Source: Methylotenera sp.
GTDB lineage: Bacteria > Pseudomonadota > Gammaproteobacteria > Burkholderiales > Methylophilaceae
NCBI RefSeq assembly: GCF_029945705.1
Contig: NZ_JAQSDC010000047.1
Coordinates: forward strand, 41,921 to 105,920
Direction: 5' to 3'
DNA: 64,000 nt
Shown: positions 20,155 through 38,775 of the stretch, in pieces
How positions within the stretch are numbered: position 1 is the first letter of the stretch
Layout of the letters: every line of letters starts with the position of its first letter
Notes under the pieces: generated by a model
Told to the model about the DNA's origin: nothing
Seen by the model: only the letters and a program-made list of their open reading frames with translations
Database searches by the model: none
Made by a program: the position numbers and the translations under genes

Positions 20155-21573
20155 TTACTTATTAAGTCTTAATCCGCCTAGTAGTGCAGCTACAGGTGCT
20201 TTATTACCAATAATCTGTTTGGTGGTAACGCCAGAACTAGTGGGTGCAATTGAAGCCTCATAAGGCTTGTCAAACCAAGGGTCGCTGCTTTTCTTTTTAG
20301 GAGGCATGCGTTTAGTCGCACTTGCATCTTGCGCATGATTTGATTTATAACTGGGCTCTTTGCTACTTGTTGAGCGTGCTTTACTGCTTGGTTTGTCAAG
20401 CGCAACGGTCTCTTTTGGAATTTGGCGTTTAATCAGTTTTTCGATTTCAACGATATATTTATCTTCTTCTGGGCTCACAAAAGAAATGGCAATACCTAAA
20501 GCGCCAGCGCGGCCTGTACGACCGATACGGTGTACATAATCTTCTGGTGCACTTGGGATTTCATAGTTAATCACCATCGGTAATTCGCTAATATCTAAAC
20601 CACGCGCGGCAACATCGGTTGCAACTAAGGCGGTGATAGTACCTGCTTTAAAACCATCTAAGGCTTTAATACGTTCTTGTTGTGTTTTGTCGCCATGAAT
20701 CGCATCGGCGGCAATGCCTTCACGCGCTAAGCTACGGCTTAGGCGGCTGGCGGTAATTTTGGTTTTGGTGAATATAATCACTTGGCTTGCATTGGCAGCT
20801 TTTAATAGTTGTATTAACAGCGTTTCTTTATCACTTTGCGCGACTTCGTAGACTTTTTGTGTCACGTTATCATTAGTCGCATTGCTACGCGCGACTTCAA
20901 TCAACTGAGGTTTTGTTAAAAACTCATCGGCTAATTTTTTAATGTCGTTTGAAAATGTGGCAGAAAACATTAAATTTTGACGCTGCTTAGGTAGCAACGC
21001 CAAAATTCTTTTTAAATCAGGCATAAAGCCCATGTCTAACATTCTATCGGCTTCATCTAGTACTAAAATTTGTACCTGATTTAGCTGAATAGTTTTTTGC
21101 TCAATATGATCCAACAAACGGCCAGGCGTGGCGACCAAAACCTCTACACCCGTTTTAAGATGCGGCGTTTGGGTTTTGATGTCAACACCACCATAAACTA
21201 CAAGAGAACGTAGTGGCGTATGTTTCGCATACGCTTTTACACTTTCCTCTACCTGAATTGCCAGTTCACGCGTTGGCGTTAAAATCAACGCGCGGACTGG
21301 GTGTTTTGCAGGTGAAGCACTTGCGCTTGCCAGTGGCAGTAATTTTTGTAACAAAGGTAGCGCAAACGCTGCAGTTTTACCTGTGCCAGTTTGTGCGCCC
21401 GCCATTAAGTCGCCCCCCGCCAAAGCCACAGGGATTGCCTGAGCTTGAATTGGCGTAGGTTTGGTGTAACCAGACTCTGTTAGCGCTTTAAGTAATTCTG
21501 GCGCTAAACCTAAATCTGTAAATGCGAGATTGTCTAAAATTACTGTTTCTGTCATTGGTTGGGTACTGTTCAA
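20155..21573 (-). CDS. DEAD-box RNA helicase, RhlE-like
   Basis: Q motif PTPIQ, AQTGTGKT, PTRELA, DEAD, SAT, HRIGRTGR. Confidence 0.95.
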   Translation of the reverse strand: MNSTQPMTETVILDNLAFTDLGLAPELLKALTESGYTKPTPIQAQAIPVALAGGDLMAGAQTGTGKTAAFALPLLQKLLPLASASASPAKHPVRALILTPTRELAIQVEESVKAYAKHTPLRSLVVYGGVDIKTQTPHLKTGVEVLVATPGRLLDHIEQKTIQLNQVQILVLDEADRMLDMGFMPDLKRILALLPKQRQNLMFSATFSNDIKKLADEFLTKPQLIEVARSNATNDNVTQKVYEVAQSDKETLLIQLLKAANASQVIIFTKTKITASRLSRSLAREGIAADAIHGDKTQQERIKALDGFKAGTITALVATDVAARGLDISELPMVINYEIPSAPEDYVHRIGRTGRAGALGIAISFVSPEEDKYIVEIEKLIKRQIPKETVALDKPSSKARSTSSKEPSYKSNHAQDASATKRMPPKKKSSDPWFDKPYEASIAPTSSGVTTKQIIGNKAPVAALLGGLRLNK

Positions 21574-21594
21574 TTAAGGTTGACGTCAAATAAC

Positions 21595-23427
21595 TTAAGC
21601 GAAGCTACGTGGGCGACGTGGAGCACCGCTACCACCAGCATTCGCGTTGCCGAAGCTACGTGAATCGCTATTTGCGCGTGCTGGACGGCTGTCACGTGAA
21701 GGTGCGCTTGAACGATCACCACGAGGTGCGTCATTGCGGCCTTCATAACGAGCGCCTAGCACACGGTTATCACCACGGTTTGCATCTGGGCGGTTACCAC
21801 GGCTATCACGGTTGCCTTCGCTACGTGGAGCACTTGCGCCATCACGTGAGAAAGGTTTTTTGCCGAAAGCTACGCTATCGCCAAAGCTGCGGTTAGGTGC
21901 GCCTGCATTTGCACGGTCACCAAAGCTGCGGTCGCCGCTTGGACGCTCAGAGCGGCTACGATCGCCACTTGAGTTACGATCACCAAAGCTACGTGGACGG
22001 TCACCAGAAGGTCTTTCTGAGCGGTTGAATTCAGGTCTAGCTGAGTTACCATTAGTTTCACGCGGCGCTGAATCACGGTTGCCACGATTTTCATCACGGC
22101 TACTGCTGTCACGGCTAAAGCTTGGACGGTCGCCACGAGGCTCACTATTACGGTTGTTAAAACCACCACGGTCATTACCACCGCGGTCATCACGTGGTTT
22201 AAAGCCTCCGCGACCACCTGGTTTATGTGCATCACGGCGAATATCGCCACGATCACCACGACCATTACTCGGACCATCCATTTTCATTGCACGTTTTGGC
22301 TCAAAACCTTCAACTACACCTGGCTCCATACGGTTGCCAGTGAATTGCTCAATTTTACGTAAGATATGACGATCCATATTTGACGCGAAAGAAATCGCAA
22401 TACCCGTTTTACCAGCACGACCAGTACGACCGATACGGTGTACATAATCTTCAGCAAATTTTGGTAAGTCATAGTTAATCACGTGGCTGATACCATTAAT
22501 ATCAATACCGCGGGCAGCAACATCCGTTGCCACTAATACTTTTACATCGCCTTGACGTAGTTTAGTCAATGTACGGTTACGCGCACCTTGAGTCATGTCG
22601 CCATGTAAAGCGGCTGTTTTGTGACCAGCAGCGTATAAATCTTCAGCTAATACATCACAATGGCGTTTAGTGCTGGTGAAAATAATCACTTGGTTAACTT
22701 CAGGTGCAATCAACAAATGCTCAAGTAATTTGTTTTTATGTGTCATGTCATCAACATAGTGCAAACGTTGCTCAATGTTGGCATGTTTTTCTTTTTGACC
22801 AGCTACTTGGATTGTTTTTGGATTTTTAAGAATTTGTTTCGCTACGCGTGCAATGTCGCCATCTAAGGTTGCAGAGAACAATAGTGTTTGACGCTCAGCT
22901 GATAGTTGCTCACAGATACGCTCAACATCAGGCAAGAAGCCCATGTCTAACATACGGTCTGCTTCATCTAATATCAACATTTGCAAACGTGATAAATCGA
23001 TACGACCACGTTCCATATGGTCAAGTAAACGACCTGGCGTTGCCACTAGAATATCTAATGGTTGTGATAGTAATTTGTTTTGTAATGGGTAAGGCATACC
23101 GCCTACGATACTCACTGTACGTGCGCGGATGAATTTACCGTATTTACGCGCAGCTTCGTTCACTTGTGTAGCAAGTTCACGTGTTGGTACTAATACCAAG
23201 ATACGTGGGCCGCGGCTTTTTAGTTCGTGTGGAGTGGCTAATAAATTTAGCGCTGGCAACATAAATGCTGCAGTTTTACCTGTACCAGTTTGGGCAGAAG
23301 CCATCAAATCGTGGCCTGCAGTCACAACAGGAATGGCTTGTGATTGGATAGCGGTTGGTGTGGTGTAGCCAGATTCTTCAATTGCACGAAGTAAGGCGTT
23401 ATCAAGATTTAGTGATTCAAAAGACAA
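21595..23427 (-). CDS. DEAD-box RNA helicase with long R/G/D/S-rich disordered C-terminus (likely TTG start 23427)
   Basis: All DEAD motifs; GAAAGGGA RBS 5 nt before the in-frame TTG at 23427; about 230 aa low-complexity tail. Confidence 0.93.
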   Translation of the reverse strand: MSFESLNLDNALLRAIEESGYTTPTAIQSQAIPVVTAGHDLMASAQTGTGKTAAFMLPALNLLATPHELKSRGPRILVLVPTRELATQVNEAARKYGKFIRARTVSIVGGMPYPLQNKLLSQPLDILVATPGRLLDHMERGRIDLSRLQMLILDEADRMLDMGFLPDVERICEQLSAERQTLLFSATLDGDIARVAKQILKNPKTIQVAGQKEKHANIEQRLHYVDDMTHKNKLLEHLLIAPEVNQVIIFTSTKRHCDVLAEDLYAAGHKTAALHGDMTQGARNRTLTKLRQGDVKVLVATDVAARGIDINGISHVINYDLPKFAEDYVHRIGRTGRAGKTGIAISFASNMDRHILRKIEQFTGNRMEPGVVEGFEPKRAMKMDGPSNGRGDRGDIRRDAHKPGGRGGFKPRDDRGGNDRGGFNNRNSEPRGDRPSFSRDSSSRDENRGNRDSAPRETNGNSARPEFNRSERPSGDRPRSFGDRNSSGDRSRSERPSGDRSFGDRANAGAPNRSFGDSVAFGKKPFSRDGASAPRSEGNRDSRGNRPDANRGDNRVLGARYEGRNDAPRGDRSSAPSRDSRPARANSDSRSFGNANAGGSGAPRRPRSFA

Positions 23428-23899
23428 AGTAGTCCCTTTCAAAAGCTGTTTCATAAAAACAATAAAAAGGGCGCTAAGTAAAAACGGGCATATCATTTGA
23501 GCACATGCAATTAGTTGAGCATATGTTCAAGAGCAATATAAACGCAGAGAATATTTGGTTTAGTTAAATTAATCACTTAAAGCCGAATGAACGACATTTC
23601 GTTTTAACTTAATAATAAACAAGCTAATATAATCTTTACCAGCGCACGGGCACAGCCGCTAACCAGTAAAAATTAAATTCAAACTTGCGAATTTAACCTT
23701 TTGAATAGTTGCTTCAATATTTCACGAGCAACAGAAGGGTCAGGGCAATGATTCAAGCATTACAAAGTTGCCGTAATGCGAATGAAGCGCGCAGTATAAC
23801 CATTTAAAACAGAATGTCAAATAATAATTGTATTAGTGAAAGGAAATAGGCGTTTATTGTGTTAAAATCGCCGCCTTTCAATAGAACTGGTAGCAATTC

Positions 23900-25708
23900 A
23901 TGTCTCGTAATTTAAGAAATATCGCAATTATCGCCCACGTTGACCATGGTAAAACGACTATGGTTGATAAACTTTTACATCAAGCAGGTACGTTTACAGG
24001 ACACCAAGTAGTGTCTGAACGTGTTATGGATAGTGGTGATATTGAAAAAGAACGCGGCATTACCATCTTGGCTAAAAATACAGCCTTGAACTATGAAGGT
24101 ACGCATATTAACGTGGTAGATACCCCAGGTCATGCTGACTTTGGTGGTGAAGTTGAGCGCGTATTAGGCATGGTGGATGGTGTTGTTTTATTAGTGGATG
24201 CCGTTGAAGGCCCAATGCCGCAAACACGTTTTGTGACGAAAAAAGCTTTAGCGCTTGGTTTAAAACCAATCGTGGTAATTAATAAAGTTGACCGTCCAGG
24301 TGCGCGTACGGATTGGGTTGTGAACCAAACTTTTGATTTGTTTGCTAACTTAGGCGCCACTGATGAGCAGTTAGATTTCCCAGTGGTTTACGCATCTGCA
24401 ATCAATGGTTATGCCATGTTGGACATGAAAACACCAAGCGACAATATGCGCGCTTTGTTTGAAACGATTTTAAGCCACGTAGCGCCACCAGTAGGTGATA
24501 ACAGTGCACCACTTCAATTACAAATTTCTGCATTAGATTACTCTACTTATACAGGTCGTTTAGGCGTTGGTCGTATCACTAACGGTAAAATCAAACCTGG
24601 CCAAGCCGTGACAGTGATGAATGAAGATAAACAAATCGCTGTAGGTAAAATCAACCAAGTGCTTGGTTTCCGTGGTTTAGAGCGTGTTGCGGTTGAAGAA
24701 GCTGAAGCTGGCGATATTGTAATTATTTCTGGTTTAGATGATATTGGTATCGGCTTCACTGTTTGTGACCGTGAAAATCCAAAAGGCTTGCCACATTTAG
24801 GCGTGGATGAGCCAACCTTGACCATGGACTTTATGGTGAACACTTCACCATTAGCTGGTACAGAAGGTAAATTCGTTACTTCACGTCAAATTCGTGACCG
24901 TTTAACTAAAGAGCTTTTAGTGAACGTTGCTTTGCGTGTTGAAGATACTGAAGATGCAGACGTATTCCGCGTTTCAGGTCGTGGTGAGTTGCATTTGACG
25001 ATTTTATTAGAAAATATGCGTCGTGAAGGTTTCGAAATGGCGGTAGGTAAGCCAAAAGTAGTTTACCGTGAAATTAATGGTGAAAAATGTGAGCCGTATG
25101 AAATCCTTACGGTTGACGTAGAAGATGAGCATCAAGGTGCAGCGATGGAGGAATTAGGTCGTCGTCGTGGTGAAATGCAAAATATGGAGTCAGATGGTAA
25201 CGGTCGTACGCGTTTGGAATATAGAATCCCAGCACGTGGTTTGATTGGTTTCCAAGGTGAATTTTTAACAATGACACGCGGTACTGGTTTGATGGGTCAT
25301 GTGTTTGATGACTACGCGCCAGTAAAAGCAGATATGCCAGGCCGTCGTAACGGTGTGTTGATCTCAGCTGAAAGTGGCGAAGCGGTTGCTTACGCCCTTT
25401 GGAAGTTGCAAGATCGCGGTAAAATGTTCACAGTTCCAGGTGATAAATTGTACGAAGGTATGATTATTGGTATTCACAGCCGCGATAACGATTTGATTGT
25501 TAACCCAATCAAAGGTAAACAACTGACTAACATTCGTTCATCAGGTACTGATGAAGCGGTGCGTTTGATTACACCAATCGCGTTGTCATTGGAATCTGCA
25601 GTTGAGTTTATTGATGATGATGAGTTGGTTGAAATTACACCAAAAACTATTCGTATCCGTAAACGTTACTTGTTAGAGCATGAGCGTAAACGTTCAATTA
25701 AAGGTTAA
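23900..25708 (+). CDS. typA: Translational GTPase TypA/BipA
   Basis: [45 protein letters not shown]. Confidence 0.98.
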
Positions 25709-25731
25709 TTCTTATAGAGTTAGCTTTAAAT

Positions 25732-25761
25732 AAAAAAACCCAGCTGAGTGCTGGGTTTTTT
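25732..25761. terminator. Bidirectional rho-independent terminator
   Basis: A7-CCCAGC-TGAGT-GCTGGG-T6 between convergent typA and cytochrome genes. Confidence 0.88.
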
Positions 25762-25826
25762 ATTGTCTTAGTTTTTGGCGGCTTAACCATTAATGATAAA
25801 CAATTGCCAATGATTAAGCTGTTGGT

Positions 25827-27464
25827 TTACTTTGGTACTGGTAAAGACTCATGCATCACATGTGAGTCATGAAAGTCATGGCAAGACATGCAGCTACTCG
25901 CAATGCGTTTAGGCTTTGGGCTATTGCCAGAATGACAGCGTAAGCATGATTGGCGGTCAGGCATTGCGACATCTGCACTGGAGTCAGACTCTTCTACGGC
26001 ATGGCAAGACTGGCATTTTTGAGTTTGATGCGAAGCGTGATTAAAATGCGCCTTGCTGAACCAATCTTGGTTGATATTCAACGGCGCTACGTGCCATGGC
26101 AAGCCATCATCAGAATTGGTCTTAACTTTAGAATCAATCTTTACTTCTGTTTTAGTTTTAGCTTTAAAGTCATTTATCTCATGGCAATATGCGCAACCAT
26201 CTGTTTTTAAAGACTCTGAGTAATGTGCAAGTTGTTTAGGTGCTTGAACCTTTAGGGCATTCATCACGTTTTGCTCTGAGCCATGCGGCACAGTGATGAG
26301 CGCCTCTGGAGGCCCCATTGTTAGCTGGTTGGCATGACACGTCATACAATCGCGATTATAAGAAACTGGTTTAAAGCGCATTTCCTTGCCTTCTTGCTGA
26401 TGGCAATTTGTACACGTCATTTCGCGTACATCCCAAATGCCATTTGGCCCCTGAACTTTACCAAAATGCTGAGAGTGTGGAAATTTGATGCCTGACTTCT
26501 CGACTAGTCGTGCTTTATCAGTTTGTGAGATACGCTCAATTTTCTTCTCTTTATCCCCTGTTAAAAACGTGAGTTTAAAGGCAGGGTGATCACGATCAAA
26601 ATCATGAATGTTCGTTAGCTTGGTATGGCTGTCAACCGCTTTAATATTGCCATGGCACCTCACACAAGTGCTGTTATCTTGTCGCGCCAGTGGATACGGC
26701 GACTTATGTTCGCGGTGACATTCAGCACAGCGTATGCCATCCATAAACAGCTTATTGTGATTAAATACTTGTTCTTGTAACTTTGGATTGGGAATATGTG
26801 GGGCAACATTACTATGACATTTTATGCAGGCTTTGTCGGTCACTTGTTGAGTTAATACCTCATGGCAATTAAAACATTGTGAGCCAAAATGCAGGTGTGA
26901 ATTAGAAATATGTCCAGGGCTCCATGCACGGTCAAAGCCTAAAGGGAGCTTCGCCATTGTTGCATGGAGATTAGGAATCAGATTTTGCGCTAATGGTAAT
27001 GCTAGAAAAATAAGTGCAATAAATGCTACTAGCGCTAGCGCTAGTCTTTTTTTAAAGGTTGATGCGCCTCGAAGTGGTTCGTGTGTTCGTGCTTTTAAGT
27101 CTTGGAAGTCATCGGGCAAAAGATGCACTAATGTTAATGACACTGCAATATTCACATCAGGCGGAGCAGGCTCGACCCTTAATTGAAAAGGGCCAATCAT
27201 CACTTGCGTACCGTGCGTGAGTGCAATATTTTGTAATATCGCACCATCTACTTCAAGCTCACCATTGACCGCCACCAAATGCAGCTGTTCATCATCTAAG
27301 CGTTTGATCACGGCATGATGCATAGAAATACGCGGATCGAGTAAATGAATGCTACATTCGGCACCTCGTCCAATGGATAACTCTTCTGCGGTGAGAGTGC
27401 GATAGCTACGCACGGGCATGCCGCGCTTATTATGTGAAATTTTGATTAAAAGACAATTAATCAT
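25827..27464 (-). CDS. FHA domain - TM - decaheme cytochrome c
   Basis: FHA motifs IGR, D..ISMHHA, NG; TM LALALVAFIALIFLALPLA; ten CxxCH (CFNCH, CIKCH, CAECH, CVRCH, CTNCH, CMTCH, CAYCH, CQSCH, CLRCH, CMSCH). Confidence 0.88.
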   Translation of the reverse strand: MINCLLIKISHNKRGMPVRSYRTLTAEELSIGRGAECSIHLLDPRISMHHAVIKRLDDEQLHLVAVNGELEVDGAILQNIALTHGTQVMIGPFQLRVEPAPPDVNIAVSLTLVHLLPDDFQDLKARTHEPLRGASTFKKRLALALVAFIALIFLALPLAQNLIPNLHATMAKLPLGFDRAWSPGHISNSHLHFGSQCFNCHEVLTQQVTDKACIKCHSNVAPHIPNPKLQEQVFNHNKLFMDGIRCAECHREHKSPYPLARQDNSTCVRCHGNIKAVDSHTKLTNIHDFDRDHPAFKLTFLTGDKEKKIERISQTDKARLVEKSGIKFPHSQHFGKVQGPNGIWDVREMTCTNCHQQEGKEMRFKPVSYNRDCMTCHANQLTMGPPEALITVPHGSEQNVMNALKVQAPKQLAHYSESLKTDGCAYCHEINDFKAKTKTEVKIDSKVKTNSDDGLPWHVAPLNINQDWFSKAHFNHASHQTQKCQSCHAVEESDSSADVAMPDRQSCLRCHSGNSPKPKRIASSCMSCHDFHDSHVMHESLPVPK

Positions 27465-27467
27465 GAC

Positions 27468-28298
27468 TTACCAATAAAGAAATACAGCAATGATATGCAC
27501 TACCATGGCAGCTAGTAGGGCAACTGCAAAGGGTGTGTGAAAGTAAAGCCAAAAGCCAAGTCTGGCTCGGTACATTAAATCTTGTCTAGCGCGTTTGACT
27601 AAAGACTGTCGCCGCACCATGATGGAATATAGCTCGCGATACAACTTACGTTGCTCGCCAGTTAAATGGTTACCAAGTATTGTCAGTTTTTCTACGGCAA
27701 CAGCGGTTGGACAATCTGGTTGATAGCCTCTTAGTTGCTCGAGTAAACCAGTGCCAATATAGGTTTCTCGGCATGCGCGATCTACCGTGAAGTTGATGTC
27801 GTCAGGCATGACTAAAGCAATCTGTCGAGCGAGCTTATCTGTTTCTGCAATCCGCAATAGCAGCCCATCTAAGCTATCTTCACCCATATTTTCGGTCATT
27901 AATCGCGGGTATATCATATATGCATAGTTGCCAAAAAAACCACTGATAACGACAATTATCAATAAAGCATAAGTGAGACTGTGAACATTGATACCAAAAT
28001 GAAAGCCACTGTGGAGCGTGGCGGTGACTGTGAGTGCTGTACCTAGATAAATATGGGCGGATAACCATCCTTGTGTTGAGCCGCTACTTCGATAGCGACG
28101 TTTGCGCACACCATACCATGTCATCCAAAACACTAAAGCGGCCGAAACTGTGCCCAAACCATAACCCAGCCAGCTTCCACCATAATAACCAACAGCGGGT
28201 TCAAATAGCATATAGGCTGTTACCGCAATAGCGATGACGATGATGGCTAGCTTGAAGTAGCGATAGTTTTTGTAGTCGAATATATTGCCGCGCTGCAT
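27468..28298 (-). CDS. Integral membrane protein, putative diheme cytochrome b
   Basis: About 5 TMs; two helices each with His pairs 14 residues apart (HIYLGTALTVTATLH, HTPFAVALLAAMVVH). Confidence 0.7.
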   Translation of the reverse strand: MQRGNIFDYKNYRYFKLAIIVIAIAVTAYMLFEPAVGYYGGSWLGYGLGTVSAALVFWMTWYGVRKRRYRSSGSTQGWLSAHIYLGTALTVTATLHSGFHFGINVHSLTYALLIIVVISGFFGNYAYMIYPRLMTENMGEDSLDGLLLRIAETDKLARQIALVMPDDINFTVDRACRETYIGTGLLEQLRGYQPDCPTAVAVEKLTILGNHLTGEQRKLYRELYSIMVRRQSLVKRARQDLMYRARLGFWLYFHTPFAVALLAAMVVHIIAVFLYW

Positions 28299-28307
28299 GA
28301 AGTTTCT

Positions 28308-30809
28308 CTAATTTCTGTCAGATTCAGTTAAAAAGACTTCATTTGTGACGCTGTCACTATTAGAGCCGCCAGCATAGTTGAGTAACTCTTCAGGGTTCAC
28401 ACGCAGAGCCGCGCCAACTGGGCAGGCACGGACACATACAGGGCCTTCTTTAATGTCTTTGCACATATCACACTTAACTGCAACTTTAGAGCCGCCGACG
28501 ATAGGAACAGCTTTGGGCTGAATGCCCAATAAGATTTGCCATATGCTACGTTCAGGCTGGTCTTGTATCACCGCCATTTGAATCACATCATAAGGGCAAT
28601 TTTGTTGGCAGTTGCCACAGCCAATACAGCTGTCATCGATGTAAACTTCGCCATGCGGTGCGCGGTGAATTGCATCAGGTGGGCAATCTTTCATGCAGTG
28701 CGGATGTTCACAGTGACGACATGAGGTTGGTACGCGAATGTTTGCAAAGATTGGCCCTGCATCTCTATCTAGCCTTGTTGCACCGCCGTGCGTATCAGCG
28801 CAAGCGTCTTCACAGTAGTTGCAGCGCACACAGAGTGACTCATCTATTAGCAATACATCAGTGGCTTCACCCACACCTTGTTGAATCAGAAATGAGATAA
28901 GATTTGATGGGGTTGATTGATTGCTTAATGAGCTTGGGTTGTCAGCAGGTTCGAGTTGCTGACGTTTTTCTTGCTCTTGCAAATGTTTAAGATAGCGCGC
29001 ATCTAGCTCACTACGAATTTCTGGATTGCGCGCAATAATGTCACTCATTCTACTTGCATCAATCAATACGGCTTCTGTAGCTACGGCTGCTCGCACGGTC
29101 GCATAACGCGGTTCTCCAGAAACCAGAGACCATTCGCCCACATAGTTGCCTGCCGCTACGTAATAAAGTACAACCTCTCGACCACCTATGATGCGCGAAA
29201 CAGTGACTGAGCCGCTTTGAATCAAATATAGCCCATCCGCTTGATCACCTTCATGGAATAACTCTTCACCTGCGGCAAAACTTTTCGGCGTTGCATGGCT
29301 CGCTAAATCATTTAGATCTTCTTCACTGAGTGTGAGACCAATACACACGTGTACAACCCACTTAATAGCCACTTCATTAAGTACGCGGCGCATGGATTGT
29401 ACTGAATCAACGAGTTTTTGCATGACTCGTCTTGGCGTTTCTATCAACACGCATTTAGTACTGGCGCGAACTGTACCTGCTCTGCGGCGGCCTGACACAA
29501 GTGCCATTTCACCAAAGAATTGACCCGCATTAAGTTTAGCGTCTGGTTTATCGTCTTCATCAATTAATACATCTAATTCACCTTCGACGATAAAGAAAAA
29601 GGTGGTGCTGTAATCATTACGTTTAAAAATAATATCGCCAGGTTCTGGCTGCAAGATGTTGCTTTGCAGCACTAACTCACGTAGCTGCAAGGTCGTAAGC
29701 ATTTTCAGCAATGGCACGCTTTTGCGTATTTTTTCCAACACATCATCTACGCCACGGTCATTGCAAAAGCTGGCGAACTTATCACGCAATAAAGCCGTAT
29801 CAGCAGGTTCTACTGGGTTGCCTAAGATGTACTCAATGACTTCATAACCTTGATTAATCCCTTGTTTGATTAGCGGATAACCAGCCAGTGCACCAATGAT
29901 GTAAAGACCTGGCACACTAGACTCATAATGTGAGGATAATGAAGGAAGGGCTGCATAGTCATCTGTTGGAAAACCTACGCCAAAGCCTTCAAGTAAAGGT
30001 CTTGAGGGCAGGGCACCTAGCCGCGCAATGACGCGGTGGCATGGAATGCGCTCTATGCCATTGGGCGTGTTGGCAATCACAGTGATAGGAAACTCACCTT
30101 TGGTATTCACTTCAATCGCTTGAGGTTTCGTTTCTAGCAACCAATCTAAAGCGCCTCTTTTTCGCGCCTCTGTTAGTTGGCTAAGGTTGCTTTCCTTACA
30201 ATTGCTAAAGTCATCTGCGCGGTTGAGAATGATAATCTGGTTGCGCCCAGTAAGCGCGAGCGCATTTTCCACGCCGCTATCACCACCACCAATGACTACG
30301 ATAGTTTCATCCTGATAAGCTTGTGGATCATCTAATTGATATTGCACTTGCGGGACATCGCCACCAGGAATCTCTAACTGCCGTAAGTTGCCTTGAACAC
30401 CAATGGCTAGCACTACATGATCTGCGGTGATTTTGCTGCCATCAACTAGCTCTAATTCCAACCATTTTTCGCGGCGGTGTATCCCAATCACTTTTGAACC
30501 GTAACGAATATTTAAGTTGTAATCAATAATCGTCTTTTCCCACGTATCGAGTACGGTTTCGCGCAACGAGGCGGTAAAAGGTAAGGGGCTGCGAATAGGC
30601 AGCGCACGCGGCTCTGACATGACGAGTTTGCCACGAAGATAACTGCGAATAGTGCTCGCTGGCTCCTGTTCGGCTTCGAGCAGTAAGTAAGATAATTTTT
30701 GCTCAGTTGCACGCACAGCCGCGGACAATCCGCTTGGGCCAGAGCCGATAATAATGGTATTGAAATGCTCTAACATTGCGACTTGCTTGCTAATTACGTT
30801 TTTTGACAT
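28308..30809 (-). CDS. FAD/NAD(P) oxidoreductase - 2x cyclic-nucleotide-binding - 4x[4Fe-4S] ferredoxin fusion
   Basis: IIGSGPSG and VIGGGDSG Rossmann motifs; cNMP cassettes FFGEMAL..RRAGTV and YVGEWSL..PRYATV; CVRCNYCEDAC, CRHCEHPHC..CP, CIGCGNCQQNCP, KCDMC..PVC..ACP (DmsB/NrfC-like pattern). Confidence 0.88.
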   Translation of the reverse strand: MSKNVISKQVAMLEHFNTIIIGSGPSGLSAAVRATEQKLSYLLLEAEQEPASTIRSYLRGKLVMSEPRALPIRSPLPFTASLRETVLDTWEKTIIDYNLNIRYGSKVIGIHRREKWLELELVDGSKITADHVVLAIGVQGNLRQLEIPGGDVPQVQYQLDDPQAYQDETIVVIGGGDSGVENALALTGRNQIIILNRADDFSNCKESNLSQLTEARKRGALDWLLETKPQAIEVNTKGEFPITVIANTPNGIERIPCHRVIARLGALPSRPLLEGFGVGFPTDDYAALPSLSSHYESSVPGLYIIGALAGYPLIKQGINQGYEVIEYILGNPVEPADTALLRDKFASFCNDRGVDDVLEKIRKSVPLLKMLTTLQLRELVLQSNILQPEPGDIIFKRNDYSTTFFFIVEGELDVLIDEDDKPDAKLNAGQFFGEMALVSGRRRAGTVRASTKCVLIETPRRVMQKLVDSVQSMRRVLNEVAIKWVVHVCIGLTLSEEDLNDLASHATPKSFAAGEELFHEGDQADGLYLIQSGSVTVSRIIGGREVVLYYVAAGNYVGEWSLVSGEPRYATVRAAVATEAVLIDASRMSDIIARNPEIRSELDARYLKHLQEQEKRQQLEPADNPSSLSNQSTPSNLISFLIQQGVGEATDVLLIDESLCVRCNYCEDACADTHGGATRLDRDAGPIFANIRVPTSCRHCEHPHCMKDCPPDAIHRAPHGEVYIDDSCIGCGNCQQNCPYDVIQMAVIQDQPERSIWQILLGIQPKAVPIVGGSKVAVKCDMCKDIKEGPVCVRACPVGAALRVNPEELLNYAGGSNSDSVTNEVFLTESDRN

Positions 30810-31129
30810 GACGCGGCGACCAAAATTAAAGTCTTAGAATATGTCTGACTGATATACGCTATTGTACGGAAAGTTAGCTTGATTATGACAAATCCATTCT
30901 GAAATTTTCACATAATTTATTTAAATCAGCTACCGAACGATAATGCAATATCTATCAAGCTAGAAGTTGCCAAAAGTTACTGGTTGACTTAAGAAACGGT
31001 AGTATTTTACGGTTTGAATGTTACGTTTTAGTAAAATTTTTACTAAAATATGATGCATAGATAGTGTCATATATGCCGTTATAAGTCAAAATTTGAAGAT
31101 TTCTTTCATGGCATGCTTGCTTACTATTC

Positions 31130-32128
31130 TTAATAGTAACTACACATCATTTCCACTTCATTTTTTGACCCCATAATGACGGGAACTCTTTGATGAAGCG
31201 CGCTAGGTTTGATGTTCACAATTCTTTGGCGGCCACTAGACGATAGTCCGCCAGCCTGTTCAATAATAAAGCTCATTGGATTGGCTTCATACATTAAGCG
31301 TAATTTTCCACCTTTATCTTTTAGCTTGCTATCTATTGGGTACATAAAAATTCCACCGCGTATTAAAATTCTATGAACCTCCGCCACCATGGATGCAACC
31401 CAGCGCATATTGAATTGCTTGCCTCGGGGGCCATCTAGACCTTTTAAGCAATCTTCAATATAGTTTTTAACTGGCGTTTCCCATGACTTTTGATTAGACA
31501 TATTGATTGCAAATTCATGCGTATTTTCTGGAACACGCATATTGAGGTGGGTTAGATAAAACTCACCGACATCGTTATCCAGGGTAAACCCATTCACGCC
31601 AAAGCCAGTCGTAATCACCAGCATTGTTGAAGAGCCATAAAGTGCATAGCCTGAACATACTTGCGTGATACCAGACTGCAGATAATCTTTTACTTTAGGA
31701 TTATCCACACCTTCAGGACAACGGAGTATAGAGAAAATTGTGCCTACCGATATATTCACATTGACGTTAGAAGAGCCATCTAGTGGGTCAAACAACAGCA
31801 GATATTTGCCACTTTTACGAAGATTGACTGGAATTTCATAGGGCTCATCCATCTCTTCTGAAGCCATTCCAGCGTAATAGCCAGCAACCTGATTCACCTC
31901 AATAAAAATATTGTTGGTAATCACATCAAGCTGCTTTTGCGTTTCACCTTGAATGTTTTCAGATTCAAGGCTACCCATAACACCCGTTAAGGCGCCTTTG
32001 CAAACGGCTCTAGAGATTGATTTACAGGCGGTTGCAATGTCATTCAATAGCAGTACAAATTCGTCATCATGAATACCGCGTAGCCGCTGCTCATCTAATA
32101 AGAATTGTGAAAATGTTTGTTTTTCCAT
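31130..32128 (-). CDS. fbp: Fructose-1,6-bisphosphatase class 1
   Basis: GETQKQLDV, ASEE, FDPLDGSSN, RWVASMVAEVHR, GKLRLMYEANP. Confidence 0.96.
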   Translation of the reverse strand: MEKQTFSQFLLDEQRLRGIHDDEFVLLLNDIATACKSISRAVCKGALTGVMGSLESENIQGETQKQLDVITNNIFIEVNQVAGYYAGMASEEMDEPYEIPVNLRKSGKYLLLFDPLDGSSNVNVNISVGTIFSILRCPEGVDNPKVKDYLQSGITQVCSGYALYGSSTMLVITTGFGVNGFTLDNDVGEFYLTHLNMRVPENTHEFAINMSNQKSWETPVKNYIEDCLKGLDGPRGKQFNMRWVASMVAEVHRILIRGGIFMYPIDSKLKDKGGKLRLMYEANPMSFIIEQAGGLSSSGRQRIVNIKPSALHQRVPVIMGSKNEVEMMCSYY

Positions 32129-32173
32129 GTCGAGGGCCTTTTTAGTAGAGTTATTTTCTAGCTTAATTGCACG

Positions 32174-33415
<1,242 letters not shown>

Positions 33416-33455
33416 TTATTTAGTTTTAATAGTTGAAGTGTTTTTCATGCAAGTT

Positions 33456-35198
33456 TTAAGCGACAGCAACTTGAGAAATAGGCTTCTTAAATAGAACGAG
33501 TAATACAGTCGTCAGCAATGTGCCCGACACAATGGCAGCGATATACGCTAACAATGGGCTCACTGCATTGGGAATGGCGAGAACAAAAACCCCGCCGTGA
33601 GGTGCGTGCAATTCACAGCCAAAATACATAGACATTGCACCAGTTAAAGCCGCACCAGCAACACATGATGGAATGACACGCAATGGATCGTTGGCGGCGA
33701 ATGGGATTGCGCCTTCGGTAATAAACGACAAACCTAAAACAGCAGATGCCTTTCCTGCAATCTGTTCATCTGCAGTGAATCGATTTTTAGCCACAAAGGT
33801 AGCCAATCCAAGCGCTAGAGGAGGCACCATGCCTGCAGCCATTACTGCAGCCATCGGCAAGAAGGTATTACTGGCAAGCAGACCAACACCAAAGGTATAG
33901 GCGGCTTTATTGACTGGGCCACCCATATCAACCGCCATCATGCCACCTAATAAAAGTCCGAGTAATACCGCGTTTGCCGAGCCAATATTTTTTAAAAAGC
34001 TGGTAAGTCCATCCATGATCGCTTTTGCTGGCTCGCCAACTACATAAATCATGAATAAACCAACTAGTAATGTTGATAATAGCGGGATAATTAATACAGG
34101 TTTTAGTCCTTCAAAATGAACTGGCAACTTGATGTTGTCGCGCATCCAAAGTGCTACATAACCTGCAAAAAAGCCAGCTAGAATCCCACCTAAAAAGCCG
34201 GCTTGCAGTTGGCTTGCTAACATTCCTCCAATCAAACCTGGTGCTAAACCCGGACGATCCGCAATAGAGTAGGCAATGAAACCTGCAAGTACCGGAATCA
34301 TCAATGCGAACGCTGCGCCGCCGCCGATACTCATCAACGCTGCGGCTAATGTGCCTTTTTCTTTAAATGCCTCGATACCAAAAATAAACGACAGTGCAAT
34401 TATCAAGCCGCCAGCAACAACCAAAGGCAACATATAAGACACACCTGTTAATAAATGTTTGTAAACACCACTGGCCTTTTGTGTGCTTTTAGCAGTTGTT
34501 GCAGCGGCAGTCTGTGCTGTTTGTTTAGGTGCAGAAAAAGCTTCCTGAATCACTTTATCTGTTTCTTTTAATGCACGGCCAACTGAAGTTTTATAGACTA
34601 TCTTACCTGCAAAGCGAGCATCGTCCACATGCGTATCAGCACCAATCACCACGACATCCGCTTCTGCAATTTCTTCATCAGTTAATTGGCTTTTAGCGCC
34701 AACAGAGCCTTGTGTTTCAACGCGAATATCGCAGTTATTAGTCTTAGCCCATTTTTTCAAAGCCTCTGCGGCCATAAAAGTGTGCGCTATGCCTGTTGGG
34801 CAGGCAGTAATGGCGACAATTTTTTTACGTGCTGTTGAGTTGTCTGGAGCTTCAACTGCTGGCGCTGCAACGGTAGATTTAGCTGCTTGAGTTTCAGTTA
34901 ATGCAAGTGCAGCTTCTAGCACTTGCTCAGTATCTCGAATCGCATCACTGGTGCTGACTGCATGTATTACTTTTCCTTCGAATCGGTTCATTTCGAGATG
35001 CACATCAGATGCAATAATTACAATCTCTGCAGTTCGAATCTCTTCTTCGCTTAAGGTATTTTCACCACCAGTTGCACCTCGGGTCTCAACCCTTATGCTG
35101 TGCCCCATCGTAATTGCCGTTTTCTTTAATGCTTCTGCTGCCATGTAGGTATGCGCAATACCTGTGGGGCATGCTGTTACCGCAATAATATTAGCCAT
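33456..35198 (-). CDS. fruA: PTS fructose-specific EIIBBC
   Basis: Two ACPTGIAHT EIIB domains; EIIC with HLLTGVSYMLP, DMGGPVNKAA, FITEGAIPFAA. Confidence 0.95.
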   Translation of the reverse strand: MANIIAVTACPTGIAHTYMAAEALKKTAITMGHSIRVETRGATGGENTLSEEEIRTAEIVIIASDVHLEMNRFEGKVIHAVSTSDAIRDTEQVLEAALALTETQAAKSTVAAPAVEAPDNSTARKKIVAITACPTGIAHTFMAAEALKKWAKTNNCDIRVETQGSVGAKSQLTDEEIAEADVVVIGADTHVDDARFAGKIVYKTSVGRALKETDKVIQEAFSAPKQTAQTAAATTAKSTQKASGVYKHLLTGVSYMLPLVVAGGLIIALSFIFGIEAFKEKGTLAAALMSIGGGAAFALMIPVLAGFIAYSIADRPGLAPGLIGGMLASQLQAGFLGGILAGFFAGYVALWMRDNIKLPVHFEGLKPVLIIPLLSTLLVGLFMIYVVGEPAKAIMDGLTSFLKNIGSANAVLLGLLLGGMMAVDMGGPVNKAAYTFGVGLLASNTFLPMAAVMAAGMVPPLALGLATFVAKNRFTADEQIAGKASAVLGLSFITEGAIPFAANDPLRVIPSCVAGAALTGAMSMYFGCELHAPHGGVFVLAIPNAVSPLLAYIAAIVSGTLLTTVLLVLFKKPISQVAVA

Positions 35199-35234
35199 TT
35201 TGCTTCTCCATTGAACATTAAGCGTGGGATAGTT

Positions 35235-36197: not shown

Positions 36198-36228
36198 GTA
36201 TGCTGTACGAATATTTAATGCAAACTGA

Positions 36229-38712: not shown

Positions 38713-38775
38713 GGTCTCTCCTAATTTATTACATTAGCGAAAAATTATTTGCGCTACTTTTATTATCAATAATAC

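What the first reader, a model, noticed from the sequence alone, without database searches (positions are those of the whole stretch)
25827..27464. FHA domain fused across the membrane to a decaheme cytochrome c
Seen: N-terminal FHA retaining the G-R, S-x-x-H and NG residues, one TM, then exactly ten CxxCH motifs in a 4+3+3-like arrangement with many spare His (H-x-x-H, FNHASH, FPHSQH). Known: FHA binds pThr; Mtr/Dms decahemes are exported by signal peptides and have no cytoplasmic domain. Inference: either a periplasmic redox sensor signalling inward or a phosphorylation-recruited electron sink.
Basis: partly seen in the sequence, partly recalled or inferred. Interest (0 to 1): 0.7.

Follow-up and report, generated by a model that had tools for sequence, protein, structure and literature searches.

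The report
FHA-anchored decaheme cytochrome in electron-wire operon
The FHA–membrane–ten-heme cytochrome is real, and it is the outer arm of a conserved but never-tested three-gene "wire" that probably carries electrons from NAD(P)H inside the cell, through iron-sulfur clusters and two membrane hemes, to ten hemes in the periplasm under cyclic-nucleotide control and possibly phospho-threonine control.

Summary
ORF 25827-27464 (-) encodes a 545-aa protein with a genuine N-terminal FHA fold, one TM helix and exactly ten CxxCH motifs. Ten further His are invariant across 143 distant relatives, which fits ten bis-His hemes.

It is not a stand-alone oddity. It is the last gene of a tight operon. 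The first gene encodes an 833-aa cytoplasmic protein: a TrxR-like FAD/NAD(P)H domain without CxxC, two cNMP-binding domains and four [4Fe-4S] clusters. The second encodes a 276-aa five-TM protein with two invariant W-x3-H-x13-H motifs, predicted to bind two b hemes.

The three genes co-occur in the same 16 of 401 sampled genomes of the class and in every Methylotenera locus examined. In this genome the decaheme is the only cytochrome with three or more hemes.

The FHA keeps Arg33, Ser47, His50 and Asn67 here, but Ser and Asn are not conserved across the family. In two distant lineages a PP2C phosphatase gene and a Hanks kinase gene follow the cytochrome gene directly.

The trio was already catalogued bioinformatically: He 2017 (Suppl. 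Table 6 and PCC4), the ptdEFG preprint (2023-24), and the Ferrigenium "NHC" preprint (2026). It has never been tested.

Best reading: a gated NAD(P)H-to-periplasm electron conduit. Verdict: a new member of a known, uncharacterised kind.

The parts
30882..30911 (-). Promoter-like site (GTGAAA-18-CATAAT with TG) upstream of the first gene of the operon
   Evidence: Consensus scan. It is a weak pattern match only. The 320-nt gap to the upstream fbp gene makes an own promoter plausible.
28308..30809 (-). Gene 1: 833-aa cytoplasmic flavo-FeS protein (FAD/NAD(P)H domain + two cNMP-binding domains + four [4Fe-4S])
   Evidence: Pfam Pyr_redox_2/3, cNMP_binding x2 and Fer4 families. PDB sequence hits to YpdA/Bdr, the PKA-R/PKG tandem CNB domains and HycB polyferredoxins. 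There is no hydrophobic segment.
29805..30761 (-). TrxR/YpdA-like FAD + NAD(P)H domain (residues ~17-335), without a redox CxxC
   Evidence: Both GxGxxG motifs are invariant (G22/G24/G27 and G174/G176). No Cys is invariant before residue 453. Best NCBIfam hit is YpdA at 106.6 bits, below its cut-off.
28965..29744 (-). Tandem cyclic-nucleotide-binding domains (residues ~356-615)
   Evidence: cNMP_binding 127 bits. The phosphate-binding cassettes are invariant: FFGE...RRxxT (431-446) and YxGE...RxxT (556-571). PKA-R/PKG-like by PDB sequence search.
28377..28856 (-). Four-cluster [4Fe-4S] ferredoxin domain (residues ~652-811)
   Evidence: Sixteen Cys are invariant, in four CxxCxxCxxxC(P)-type groups: 660/663/666/670, 697/700/705/709, 728/731/734/738 and 780/783/792/796. 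HycB3/HycB4/HydN-like.
27468..28298 (-). Gene 2: 276-aa five-TM inner-membrane protein, predicted di-heme b, with a ~110-aa cytoplasmic helical insert (131-245)
   Evidence: Invariant W78-x3-H82-x13-H96 on TM3, S119-G120-x-x-G123 on TM4, and W250-x3-H254-x13-H268 on TM5, in 16 sequences at 35-78% identity. Hydropathy. Sub-threshold PF01292 hit, 28.3 bits against 30.1, matched in 7 of 16 members. The motifs match the 'IMP' of PCC3/PCC4 in He et al. 2017.
25827..27464 (-). Gene 3: the finding, a 545-aa FHA-TM-decaheme cytochrome c
27129..27464 (-). FHA domain (residues 1-112), cytoplasmic
   Evidence: Pfam FHA 32.2 bits. pLDDT about 90 with 11 strands. Foldseek hits to FHA structures. G32, R33, H50 and A51 are conserved family-wide; S47 and N67 are not.
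26982..27050 (-). Single TM helix / signal anchor (residues ~139-161)
   Evidence: Kyte-Doolittle peak of 2.9, with a KKR flank on the N-terminal side. Predicted helix 134-162. P157 is invariant.
25851..26912 (-). Periplasmic ten-heme domain (residues ~185-538)
   Evidence: Ten CxxCH, plus ten non-motif His conserved in at least 142 of 144 sequences: 190, 223, 253, 293, 330, 333, 394, 476, 479 and 532. Pfam Cytochrom_c3_2, Cytochrome_C7, Paired_CXXCH_1 and MtrC-MtrF_II-IV are all above their cut-offs.
25733..25761 (.). Bidirectional terminator-like hairpin (A6-stem-loop-stem-T6) between the convergent typA and the decaheme gene
   Evidence: 12-bp stem flanked by an A-run and a T-run.

Best explanation
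The FHA-TM-decaheme protein is the periplasmic arm of a three-subunit inner-membrane electron-transfer complex encoded by window 25827-30809 (-).

Proposed electron path (inferred). NAD(P)H is oxidised at the TrxR-like FAD domain of the 833-aa cytoplasmic subunit. Electrons then pass along its four [4Fe-4S] clusters. They cross the membrane through two b hemes held by the H82/H254 and H96/H268 pairs of the 276-aa five-TM subunit. They enter a chain of ten bis-His c hemes anchored in the periplasm by the single TM helix of the 545-aa subunit.

Proposed acceptors (inferred). In Methylotenera there is no porin or second multiheme partner. The likely acceptors are therefore soluble periplasmic carriers or enzymes, such as c4, c5 or CcoP, or small oxidants.

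Proposed gating (inferred). Outward flow is favoured both by redox potential and by the membrane potential, so it would drain reductant and proton-motive force. It therefore needs gating. The tandem cNMP-binding domains sit between the flavin and FeS modules. The cytoplasmic FHA domain would dock or regulate the cytoplasmic partners, phospho-dependently in at least some lineages.

Shown here: the cofactor motifs and their conservation, the predicted topology, the operon structure and the strict co-occurrence of the three genes.

Inferred only: that a complex forms, the direction of flow, the acceptor, and what the FHA binds.
For: Cofactor chain:
- Ten CxxCH plus ten invariant distal His.
- Two W-x3-H-x13-H motifs and an SGxxG motif, all invariant, in the five-TM protein.
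- Sixteen invariant FeS Cys, both GxGxxG motifs and both cNMP phosphate-binding cassettes invariant in the 833-aa protein.

Topology and heme maturation:
- Basic residues (KKR) flank the TM helix on its N-terminal side and there is no signal peptide.
- The flavo-FeS protein has no hydrophobic segment.
- Ccm genes (CcmF- and CcmC-like) are present in the genome.

One functional unit:
- Gaps of 9 and 3 nt, with a single terminator.
- Same gene order in all 40+ Methylotenera loci whose contigs extend far enough, while the flanking genes change.
- Same order in distant genera at 24-30% (decaheme), 35-48% (b protein) and 44-53% (flavo-FeS) identity.
- Phyletic co-occurrence in 401 genomes of the class: the decaheme in 16, the b-type protein in the same 16 plus 2 marginal cases, and full-length flavo-FeS in the same 16 plus 1.
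- Larger versions of the cluster elsewhere add further multiheme cytochromes, which fits electron transfer.

Gating:
- A class III cyclase is present in the genome.
- Two Hanks kinases, three PP2C phosphatases and only one other FHA protein are present.
- PP2C and kinase genes lie immediately downstream of the decaheme gene in two unrelated lineages.

Retention: the gene is kept in streamlined 1.6-1.8 Mb genomes of the genus.
Against: - There is no experimental datum anywhere for this family.
- The b-heme assignment rests on motifs only. The AlphaFold model of the TM bundle has low confidence and finds no PDB fold match. PF01292 is below its cut-off.
- The heme domain is also modelled poorly (pLDDT below 50), so heme-to-heme geometry and the contact with the b subunit are unknown.
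- The direction of flow is a thermodynamic argument, not an observation.
- The five-TM protein could react with quinone instead, as He et al. 2017 proposed.
- The FHA phosphate-binding Ser is Ser in only 10 of 144 representatives, and the Asn is present in only 7 of 144.
- Two module-bearing genomes (93% and 99% complete) have no Hanks kinase above the cut-off.
- One lineage has lost the FHA altogether but keeps the partner genes.
- No transcript data could be obtained.
Confidence: 0.6

Rival explanations
1. Quinone-coupled module. The five-TM di-heme b protein is a quinol/quinone-active cytochrome b. The decaheme exchanges electrons between the quinone pool and periplasmic partners, in the manner of CbcL, CbcBA or CymA. 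The flavo-FeS subunit would be an NAD(P)H:quinone feeder or a redox regulator, not an obligatory donor to the hemes.
For: The weak Pfam similarity is to the quinone-reactive cytochrome b family PF01292 (HyaC/FdnI type). He et al. 2017 proposed quinone activity for this family of inner-membrane proteins. The Ferrigenium preprint proposes quinone reduction via the cytochrome. Some lineages encode the flavo-FeS gene on a different contig or several kb from the other two.
Against: No quinone-site motif was identified. The flavo-FeS protein co-occurs strictly with the other two genes in 401 genomes, which argues that it is an integral partner. A cytoplasmic chain of four FeS clusters that ends at a membrane di-heme protein is what a through-membrane wire needs.
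Confidence: 0.2
2. Inward electron uptake. Electrons from a periplasmic donor, such as Fe(II)-derived electrons or reduced cytochromes, enter through the ten hemes. They cross the membrane and reduce cytoplasmic NAD(P)+ or another acceptor through the FeS/flavin subunit.
For: The module is frequent in Fe(II)-oxidising Gallionellaceae. All the redox centres are in principle reversible.
Against: Inward electron movement runs against the membrane potential. It is also uphill from any donor more positive than NAD(P)H. Methylotenera is a methylotroph whose periplasmic dehydrogenases deliver high-potential electrons (general knowledge). No energy-coupling subunit is encoded in the operon.
Confidence: 0.08
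3. Periplasmic redox sensor. The redox state of the decaheme is transmitted through the TM helix to the FHA domain, which changes its binding to a phospho-protein and thereby signals into the cell.
For: FHA domains are signalling modules. Kinase and phosphatase genes are adjacent in two lineages. cNMP-binding domains are present in the operon.
Against: No output domain (kinase, cyclase or DNA-binding) exists in the operon. Ten hemes, two b hemes, four FeS clusters and a flavin are far more than a sensor needs. An FHA-less variant keeps both partner genes. The pThr-contacting Ser and Asn are poorly conserved.
Confidence: 0.07

Closest known systems
[quoted passage not shown] 2017, PMC5566968, Suppl. 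Table 6), equivalent to the 'NHC' cluster of Ferrigenium straubiae (bioRxiv 10.64898/2026.01.22.701106)
   Same: Same three genes with the same sizes: 796-805, 308-310 and 544-556 aa there, against 833, 276 and 545 aa here. Five-TM protein with two HX13H motifs, no porin gene, and an FHA on the cytoplasmic side of the cytochrome. Also Betaproteobacteria.
   Different: Those cytochromes were counted as nine-heme; this one, and 137 of the 149 best representatives, have ten CxxCH. The 2026 preprint found no redox motif in the TM protein, whereas the motifs are clear here. The host here is a methylotroph, not an Fe(II) oxidiser, and the protein is the only multiheme cytochrome in the genome.
ptdEFG core of the ptdABCDEFG operon (bioRxiv 10.1101/2023.11.21.568154), equivalent to the 'PCC4' porin-cytochrome cluster (He et al. 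2017)
   Same: A cNMP-binding FeS protein, a ferric-reductase-like five-TM protein with W-x3-H-x13-H on TM3 and TM5 and SGxxG on TM4, and a decaheme.
   Different: Ptd/PCC4 clusters add a porin, a pentaheme, a tetraheme and a separate FAD/NAD(P) oxidoreductase. Here those are absent, and the flavin domain is fused to the cNMP/FeS protein.
Eukaryotic NOX / ferric reductase (FRD domain + FNR-like dehydrogenase)
   Same: Same logic: cytoplasmic NAD(P)H to flavin, then two b hemes on HX13H pairs of two TM helices, then the outside. Activity is tightly regulated. He et al. 2017 drew this parallel.
   Different: Unrelated flavin domain (TrxR-like rather than FNR-like). A four-cluster FeS wire is inserted. 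The acceptor is a ten-heme c chain, not O2 or Fe(III). Pfam FRD (PF01794) was not hit.
Geobacter CbcL/CbcBA and Desulfovibrio Tmc/Hmc transmembrane redox complexes (from general knowledge, not tested here)
   Same: Combination of a periplasmic multiheme c, a membrane cytochrome b and, in Tmc/Hmc, a cytoplasmic FeS protein.
   Different: None of them has an NAD(P)H flavin domain, cNMP-binding domains or an FHA. CbcL and CbcBA are quinol oxidases.
MtrA/DmsE decaheme cytochromes (TIGR03508)
   Same: Ten CxxCH with bis-His ligation. Weak local similarity over the last hemes (37 bits).
   Different: The score is far below the cut-off of 192. MtrA/DmsE proteins are soluble, have signal peptides and pair with an MtrB porin. 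This protein has an N-terminal FHA and a TM anchor, and no such porin partner.
FHA domains of membrane machines: T3SS YscD/PrgH cytoplasmic domain, T6SS TagH/Fha, mycobacterial FhaA/FhaB
   Same: An FHA fold tethered to the cytoplasmic face of the inner membrane by a single TM helix. Weak Pfam Yop-YscD_cpl and NCBIfam TagH hits. Many relatives are scored as Yop-YscD_cpl rather than FHA.
   Different: Those domains regulate secretion or cell-wall machines. None is fused to a redox domain.

Membership tests
FHA domain (PF00498) | Profile score at or above the Pfam gathering threshold | tested here: met
   32.2 bits against 20.7, residues 30-91.
FHA domain (PF00498) | Eleven-stranded beta-sandwich fold | tested here: met
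   AlphaFold2 pLDDT about 90 over residues 1-112 with 11 strands. The top 30 or more Foldseek PDB hits are FHA domains, with TM-score normalised to the target up to 0.72.
FHA domain (PF00498) | pThr-contacting residues: Arg of G-R, Ser of S-x-x-H, His, and Asn of N-G | tested here: inconclusive
   This protein has R33, S47, H50 and N67. Across 143 relatives Arg is 92% and His 79% conserved, but Ser is present in only 10 of 144 (Ala in 63) and Asn in 7 of 144. The residue after Ser is Met or Leu rather than a polar or basic residue.
FHA domain (PF00498) | Binds phospho-threonine peptides | not testable with these tools
   Indirect evidence only. PP2C and Hanks kinase genes lie directly downstream in two lineages. 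This genome has two kinases and three PP2C phosphatases.
MtrA/DmsE decaheme family (TIGR03508) | Profile score at or above the curated cut-off | tested here: not met
   37.2 bits against 192.2.
MtrA/DmsE decaheme family (TIGR03508) | Signal peptide, soluble periplasmic protein, adjacent MtrB-type porin | tested here: not met
   The N-terminus is an FHA domain followed by a TM anchor. The nearby LamB porin (32174-33400) belongs to the fructose PTS cluster and is not conserved with the trio.
NapC/NirT/CymA/NrfH quinol dehydrogenases | Match to the family profile; N-terminal TM helix plus a tetraheme | tested here: not met
   No NapC/NirT-family model appears among the Pfam hits at E <= 0.1. The protein has ten hemes and a cytoplasmic domain.
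Inner-membrane protein ('IMP') family of PCC3/PCC4 (He et al. 2017), for the 276-aa partner | Five TM helices | tested here: met
   Hydropathy. AlphaFold helices 10-31, 43-66, 76-98, 105-138 and 214-275.
Inner-membrane protein ('IMP') family of PCC3/PCC4 (He et al. 2017), for the 276-aa partner | W-x3-H-x13-H on TM3 and on TM5, and SGxxG on TM4 | tested here: met
   W78/H82/H96, S119/G120/G123 and W250/H254/H268 are all invariant in 16 sequences from at least 12 genera. The motif definition was read.
Inner-membrane protein ('IMP') family of PCC3/PCC4 (He et al. 2017), for the 276-aa partner | Binds two b-type hemes | not testable with these tools
   Prediction only. PF01292 is sub-threshold (28.3 against 30.1; matched in 7 of 16 members at E < 0.01). 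There is no PDB fold match.
Porin-less MHC + IMP + redox-protein trio (He 2017 Suppl. Table 6; Ferrigenium NHC cluster) | Three adjacent genes: ~800-aa FeS redox protein, ~300-aa five-TM HX13H protein, ~550-aa multiheme cytochrome; no porin | tested here: met
   833, 276 and 545 aa, with gaps of 9 and 3 nt. The published sizes were read and the architecture.
Porin-less MHC + IMP + redox-protein trio (He 2017 Suppl. Table 6; Ferrigenium NHC cluster) | Sequence homology to the named Gallionella/Ferrigenium proteins | not tested
The link rests on identical architecture, on the Gallionellaceae table entry 'Forkhead-associated protein, 10 CXXCH', and on the wide beta/gammaproteobacterial spread of the family.
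ptdABCDEFG / PCC4 porin-cytochrome cluster | Porin plus pentaheme and tetraheme cytochromes alongside the EFG core | tested here: not met
   The decaheme is the only ORF in the 2.93-Mb genome with three or more CxxCH. Only the core trio is present.

The most novel reading that the evidence does not exclude
The trio is a quinone-independent, NOX-like NAD(P)H:periplasmic-cytochrome oxidoreductase. It would be a regulated 'electron valve' that short-circuits cytoplasmic reductant and membrane potential to the periplasm. A cyclic nucleotide would switch it through the tandem cNMP-binding domains. Ser/Thr phosphorylation, read by the FHA domain, would control docking of the cytoplasmic subunit. In Methylotenera, where it is the sole multiheme cytochrome and is kept even in 1.6-Mb genomes, it would be a so-far unrecognised respiratory branch of methylotrophs. 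Possible roles are redox balancing under O2 limitation, or feeding periplasmic N-oxide, metal or humic-substance reduction.
Probability: 0.35. Interest if true: 0.8.

Novelty: new member of a known kind. Interest (0 to 1): 0.55.

Why it matters
If the model holds, this is a widespread route for moving electrons across the bacterial inner membrane without the quinone pool. The search found hundreds of 50%-identity clusters, spanning Beta- and Gammaproteobacteria. In larger versions the core is found in other phyla too, according to the literature. The route would be controlled by second-messenger domains and possibly by phospho-signalling domains, which is unusual for respiratory complexes.

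For methylotroph ecology it would add a regulated reductant outlet to Methylotenera, a key freshwater methanol and methylamine consumer that is active at oxic-anoxic interfaces.

The Methylotenera version is the minimal form: three genes and no other multiheme cytochrome in the genome. That makes it an attractive system for biochemical reconstitution and for settling what the PCC4/ptd/NHC core does.

Tried and rejected
- PDB sequence searches. The single protein found nothing. The family profile gave only marginal c3/c7-type and FHA hits. The b-type protein profile found nothing.
- AlphaFold2 of the whole cytochrome. The heme domain came out below pLDDT 50, as expected without hemes, so only the FHA part of the fold search is meaningful.
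- AlphaFold2 plus Foldseek of the five-TM protein. No PDB match at E < 0.2 and low confidence in TM1-3, so the fold gives no support for or against a cytochrome b.
- Rfam scan of 25000-32000. Nothing found, so no riboswitch or leader RNA.
- MtrAB-like extracellular conduit. Rejected for this genome, which has no second multiheme cytochrome. The neighbouring LamB porin belongs to a fructose PTS cluster.
- Membership in MtrA/DmsE. Rejected.
- NapC/NirT type. Rejected.
- 'FHA degenerate and inert'. Not adopted. The fold is intact, Arg33 is 92% conserved, and kinase and phosphatase genes are adjacent in two lineages.
- 'FHA canonical pThr reader throughout the family'. Also not adopted, because Ser and Asn are not conserved and an FHA-less variant exists.
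Full report
**Observation**

The ORF at 25827-27464 (-) is intact and encodes 545 aa.
- A regex count finds exactly ten CxxCH motifs, at residues 197, 213, 246, 267, 351, 373, 424, 484, 507 and 525.
- All 20 periplasmic Cys lie in these motifs.
- 2000 shuffles of the same composition never gave more than one motif.

Pfam places an FHA domain at residues 30-91, at 32.2 bits against a gathering score of 20.7. It also places several class III / c7 / MtrC-type multiheme models over residues 190-534.

One hydrophobic segment at about 139-161 is preceded by KKR. This predicts an N-in, C-out signal anchor, with the FHA in the cytoplasm and the hemes in the periplasm.

AlphaFold2, run with a 37-sequence alignment, gives pLDDT of about 90 for residues 1-112 as an 11-stranded sandwich. 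The heme-free heme domain comes out below pLDDT 50. Foldseek against the PDB returns only FHA domains at the top: GarA, Ki67, FhaA and OdhI, with TM-scores normalised to the target of 0.6-0.72.

**Heme ligation**

I aligned the protein with 143 representatives at 28-42% identity. These come from an exhaustive search of 1.84 billion cluster representatives, which found 448 hits at E <= 1e-30.
- Exactly ten non-motif His are conserved in at least 142 of 144 sequences: H190, H223, H253, H293, H330, H333, H394, H476, H479 and H532.
- The other eleven periplasmic His are not conserved.
- 137 of the 149 best representatives have ten CxxCH and 9 have nine.

This is the signature of ten bis-His, low-spin hemes. 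It points to an electron-transfer chain rather than a catalytic site.

**The operon**

Two genes lie directly upstream on the same strand, with gaps of 9 and 3 nt.

Gene 1 (28308-30809) encodes 833 aa with four parts:
- a TrxR/YpdA-like FAD/NAD(P)H domain;
- two cNMP-binding domains resembling the PKA-R/PKG tandem;
- a four-cluster ferredoxin of the HycB/HydN type.

In ten homologues down to 45% identity the following are invariant:
- both GxGxxG motifs;
- both cNMP phosphate-binding cassettes (FFGE...RRxxT and YxGE...RxxT);
- all sixteen FeS cysteines.

No redox CxxC is conserved in the flavin domain. It therefore looks like a TrxR-type ferredoxin:NAD(P) reductase rather than a disulfide reductase.

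Gene 2 (27468-28298) encodes a 276-aa protein with five TM helices and a confidently modelled cytoplasmic helical insert of about 110 aa. In 16 sequences at 35-78% identity the following are invariant:
- W78-x3-H82-x13-H96 on TM3;
- S119-G120-x-x-G123 on TM4;
- W250-x3-H254-x13-H268 on TM5.

With the predicted topology, H82 and H254 lie near the cytoplasmic face and H96 and H268 near the periplasmic face. That is the classical two-b-heme arrangement.

Support from profiles is weak. PF01292 scores 28.3 bits against 30.1, and 7 of 16 members match at E < 0.01. The fold search found nothing. The b-heme assignment therefore rests on motifs.

A bidirectional terminator-like hairpin at 25733-25761 closes the operon against the convergent typA. 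A weak promoter-like site lies at 30911-30882.

**Are the three genes one system?**

- In 53 Methylotenera/Methylophilaceae loci the order flavo-FeS, b-type protein, decaheme is kept wherever the contig extends. The flanking genes (typA, fbp, porin) are kept only in the closest relatives.
- In a sample of 401 genomes drawn evenly from the class, the decaheme occurs in 16 genomes of 14 genera.
- The b-type protein occurs in the same 16, plus one fragmentary genome and one weak paralogue.
- Full-length flavo-FeS homologues (45-53% identity over residues ~10-814) occur in the same 16 plus the same fragmentary genome, and in none of the other ~384.
- In most of these genomes the genes are adjacent, at 24-30%, 35-48% and 44-53% identity respectively.

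This is about as strong as comparative genomics gets for a functional triad.

Within the family Methylophilaceae the decaheme is found in 24 of 151 genomes and 7 of 29 genera. These include five genomes of only 1.6-1.8 Mb in the window's own genus.

**Wider context**

- Named relatives come from Sulfuritalea, Usitatibacteraceae, Lysobacteraceae and Arenimonas.
- In non-Methylotenera lineages the cluster is often larger. Added genes encode an HbpS-like triple-domain protein of about 700 aa, an unannotated protein of about 630-740 aa, a c554-like multiheme of about 450 aa and, in a Lysobacteraceae MAG, a 1252-aa multiheme/LVIVD protein. One cluster sits next to a ccm operon.
- In the window's own 2.93-Mb genome the decaheme is the only ORF with three or more CxxCH.
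- The four dihemes are c4-like, a tandem c5-like protein, CcoP and a DHC-like protein.
- An MtrAB-type extracellular conduit is therefore excluded here. The periplasmic acceptors must be small carriers, enzymes or solutes.
- Ccm-type maturation genes are present.

**The FHA domain**

The fold markers are conserved across the family: G32 97%, R33 92%, H50 79%, A51 86% and G91 93%. The FHA is present in 142 of 144 long representatives.

The phosphate-contacting residues are not conserved:
- the Ser is Ser in only 10 of 144 and Ala in 63;
- the residue after it is Leu or Met;
- the Asn of N-G is present in only 7 of 144.

The Methylotenera clade keeps N67 in at least 90% of sequences and has either Ser or Ala at position 47. 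This protein has all four canonical residues. One lineage (L085) has lost the FHA but keeps both partner genes.

On the other side, two unrelated lineages (G039 and G215) carry a PP2C phosphatase gene and a Hanks kinase gene immediately downstream of the decaheme gene on the same strand. From the kinase counts I expect about 0.2 such adjacencies by chance across the 15 genomes; this is my own estimate from the data. One of the two lineages has Ala at the Ser position.

Hanks kinases above the cut-off are present in 12 of 15 module-bearing genomes. They are absent in two genomes that are 93% and 99% complete.

The window's genome has:
- two Hanks kinases, one paired with a PP2C and one a PP2C-kinase fusion inside a nitrate-assimilation cluster;
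- a third PP2C next to the only other FHA protein;
- a class III nucleotide cyclase.

My reading is that the FHA is a real cytoplasmic interaction module. Its partner is most likely the flavo-FeS subunit or the cytoplasmic insert of the b subunit. Its dependence on phosphorylation is plausible for this protein and for some lineages, but it is not a family-wide constraint.

**Mechanism**

The cofactor inventory forms an uninterrupted chain: NAD(P)H site, FAD, four [4Fe-4S] clusters, heme b on the cytoplasmic (N) side, heme b on the periplasmic (P) side, then ten c hemes. Outward flow is downhill in potential and is also favoured by the membrane potential. An ungated complex would drain both reductant and proton-motive force. 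That gives a rationale for the two cNMP-binding domains inserted between the flavin and FeS modules, and for the FHA.

These steps are inferred, not shown: complex formation, direction of flow, the acceptor, and the ligands of the regulatory domains.

Rival readings:
- The five-TM protein is quinone-active, so the module connects to the quinone pool. This is the hypothesis of He et al. 2017 and of the Ferrigenium preprint. I give it about 0.2.
- Inward electron uptake, at about 0.08. It runs against the membrane potential, is uphill to NAD(P)+, and the operon has no coupling subunit.
- A pure redox sensor, at about 0.07. The operon has no output domain, and the cofactor load far exceeds what a sensor needs.

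**Comparison with what is known**

Earlier notes from this scan pointed to two papers, which I read and checked.
- He et al. 2017 (PMC5566968) defined the inner-membrane protein of the 'PCC3/PCC4' clusters by five TM helices, SGxxG on TM4 and W-x3-H-x13-H on TM3 and TM5. They predicted two b hemes by analogy with ferric reductase/NOX domains. The window's 276-aa protein meets all three sequence criteria.
- Their Supplementary Table 6 lists a porin-less trio in Gallionella capsiferriformans ES-2, in Gallionella sp. AAA018-N21 and in the Gallionellaceae member of a nitrate-dependent Fe(II)-oxidising enrichment. Sizes there are 544-556, 308-310 and 796-805 aa, against 545, 276 and 833 aa here.
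- The ptdABCDEFG preprint (10.1101/2023.11.21.568154) names the same core. PtdE is a cNMP/FeS protein, PtdF a ferric-reductase-like membrane protein and PtdG a decaheme. That cluster also has a porin, penta- and tetraheme proteins and a separate flavoprotein, and its function is described as 'completely unknown'.
- The Gallionellaceae pangenome paper lists a 'Forkhead-associated protein' with 10 CXXCH in 27 genomes.
- The 2026 Ferrigenium preprint describes the trio as a novel nonaheme 'NHC' with a cytosolic FHA. It states that FHA-multiheme fusions had not been reported, and it found no redox motif in the TM protein.

The protein is not a member of the MtrA/DmsE family (37 bits against 192). 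It is not a NapC/NirT-type quinol dehydrogenase either, since no such profile was hit.

**Verdict**

The system is a new member, in a methylotroph and in its minimal three-gene form, of a kind that has been catalogued bioinformatically since 2017 but has never been tested.

This analysis adds five points:
- the strict three-way co-occurrence of the genes;
- the ten invariant distal His;
- the invariance of every cofactor and cNMP-cassette residue in the flavo-FeS subunit;
- the family-wide non-conservation of the pThr-contacting Ser and Asn, set against the kinase/phosphatase adjacency in two lineages;
- the fact that in Methylotenera this is the sole multiheme cytochrome.

Interest is moderate, 0.55. 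Reconstitution would make the function of a widespread orphan respiratory module directly testable.

Limits:
- no multimer modelling;
- low-confidence models for both heme-binding parts.

Noticed in passing
window 31130-39564 (-): A complete fructose utilisation cluster sits directly upstream of the operon, in a methylotroph. It comprises a DeoR regulator, a FruB-like EIIA-HPr-EI fusion (827 aa), a PfkB-type kinase likely to be 1-phosphofructokinase, a FruA-like EIIB'BC, a LamB-type porin and a class I FBPase. Only the closest relatives share fbp and the porin next to the trio.
   Followed up: partly
window 20155-23496 (-): Two DEAD-box helicase genes lie in tandem. The second (633 aa) carries a C-terminal tail of about 240 aa that is extremely rich in R, G, D, S and N, with a repetitive RGD/SR-like composition.
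   Followed up: no
L055 (own genome, contig C36 ~109 kb): One of the genome's two Hanks kinases is a PP2C-kinase fusion with a C-terminal TM helix (564 aa). It lies between a NarK-like transporter and nirD plus an assimilatory nitrate reductase gene, so it sits inside a nitrate-assimilation cluster.
   Followed up: no
L056 (own genome, contig C54 ~49.8 kb): The only other FHA protein of the genome (256 aa) follows a PP2C phosphatase gene. It precedes a GAF/HD-type signalling protein.
   Followed up: no
L079 5335-7449, L084 5426-7519, L093 6562-8454, L094 10746-12632: In many non-Methylotenera lineages the decaheme gene is followed by a protein of about 630-700 aa with three HbpS-like (PF03928) stretches. 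After that comes a protein of about 630-740 aa with no Pfam hit, or with SH3 domains. Both are absent from the window. Their role is unknown.
   Followed up: partly
L085 7579-9009 (-): A natural FHA-less variant of the decaheme: 476 aa, still with ten CxxCH. It keeps the b-type and flavo-FeS partner genes directly upstream.
   Followed up: partly
L082 and L083 (genome G155, contigs C12 and C14): One 2.8-Mb genome carries two diverged copies of the module. In both, Arg replaces the FHA Ser, and the genome has no Hanks kinase above the cut-off.
   Followed up: no
L080 6697-7950 (+): In the lineage with the adjacent PP2C and kinase genes, the b-type protein ORF is 417 aa. It has an N-terminal extension of about 100 aa with no Pfam hit, and the flavo-FeS gene lies on another contig.
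   Followed up: no
window 27468-28298, residue T179 of the 276-aa protein: A nearly invariant Thr sits in an E-x-T-x-x-G loop of the cytoplasmic helical insert of the b-type subunit. It is a possible phospho-site for the neighbouring FHA domain; this is pure speculation.
   Followed up: no
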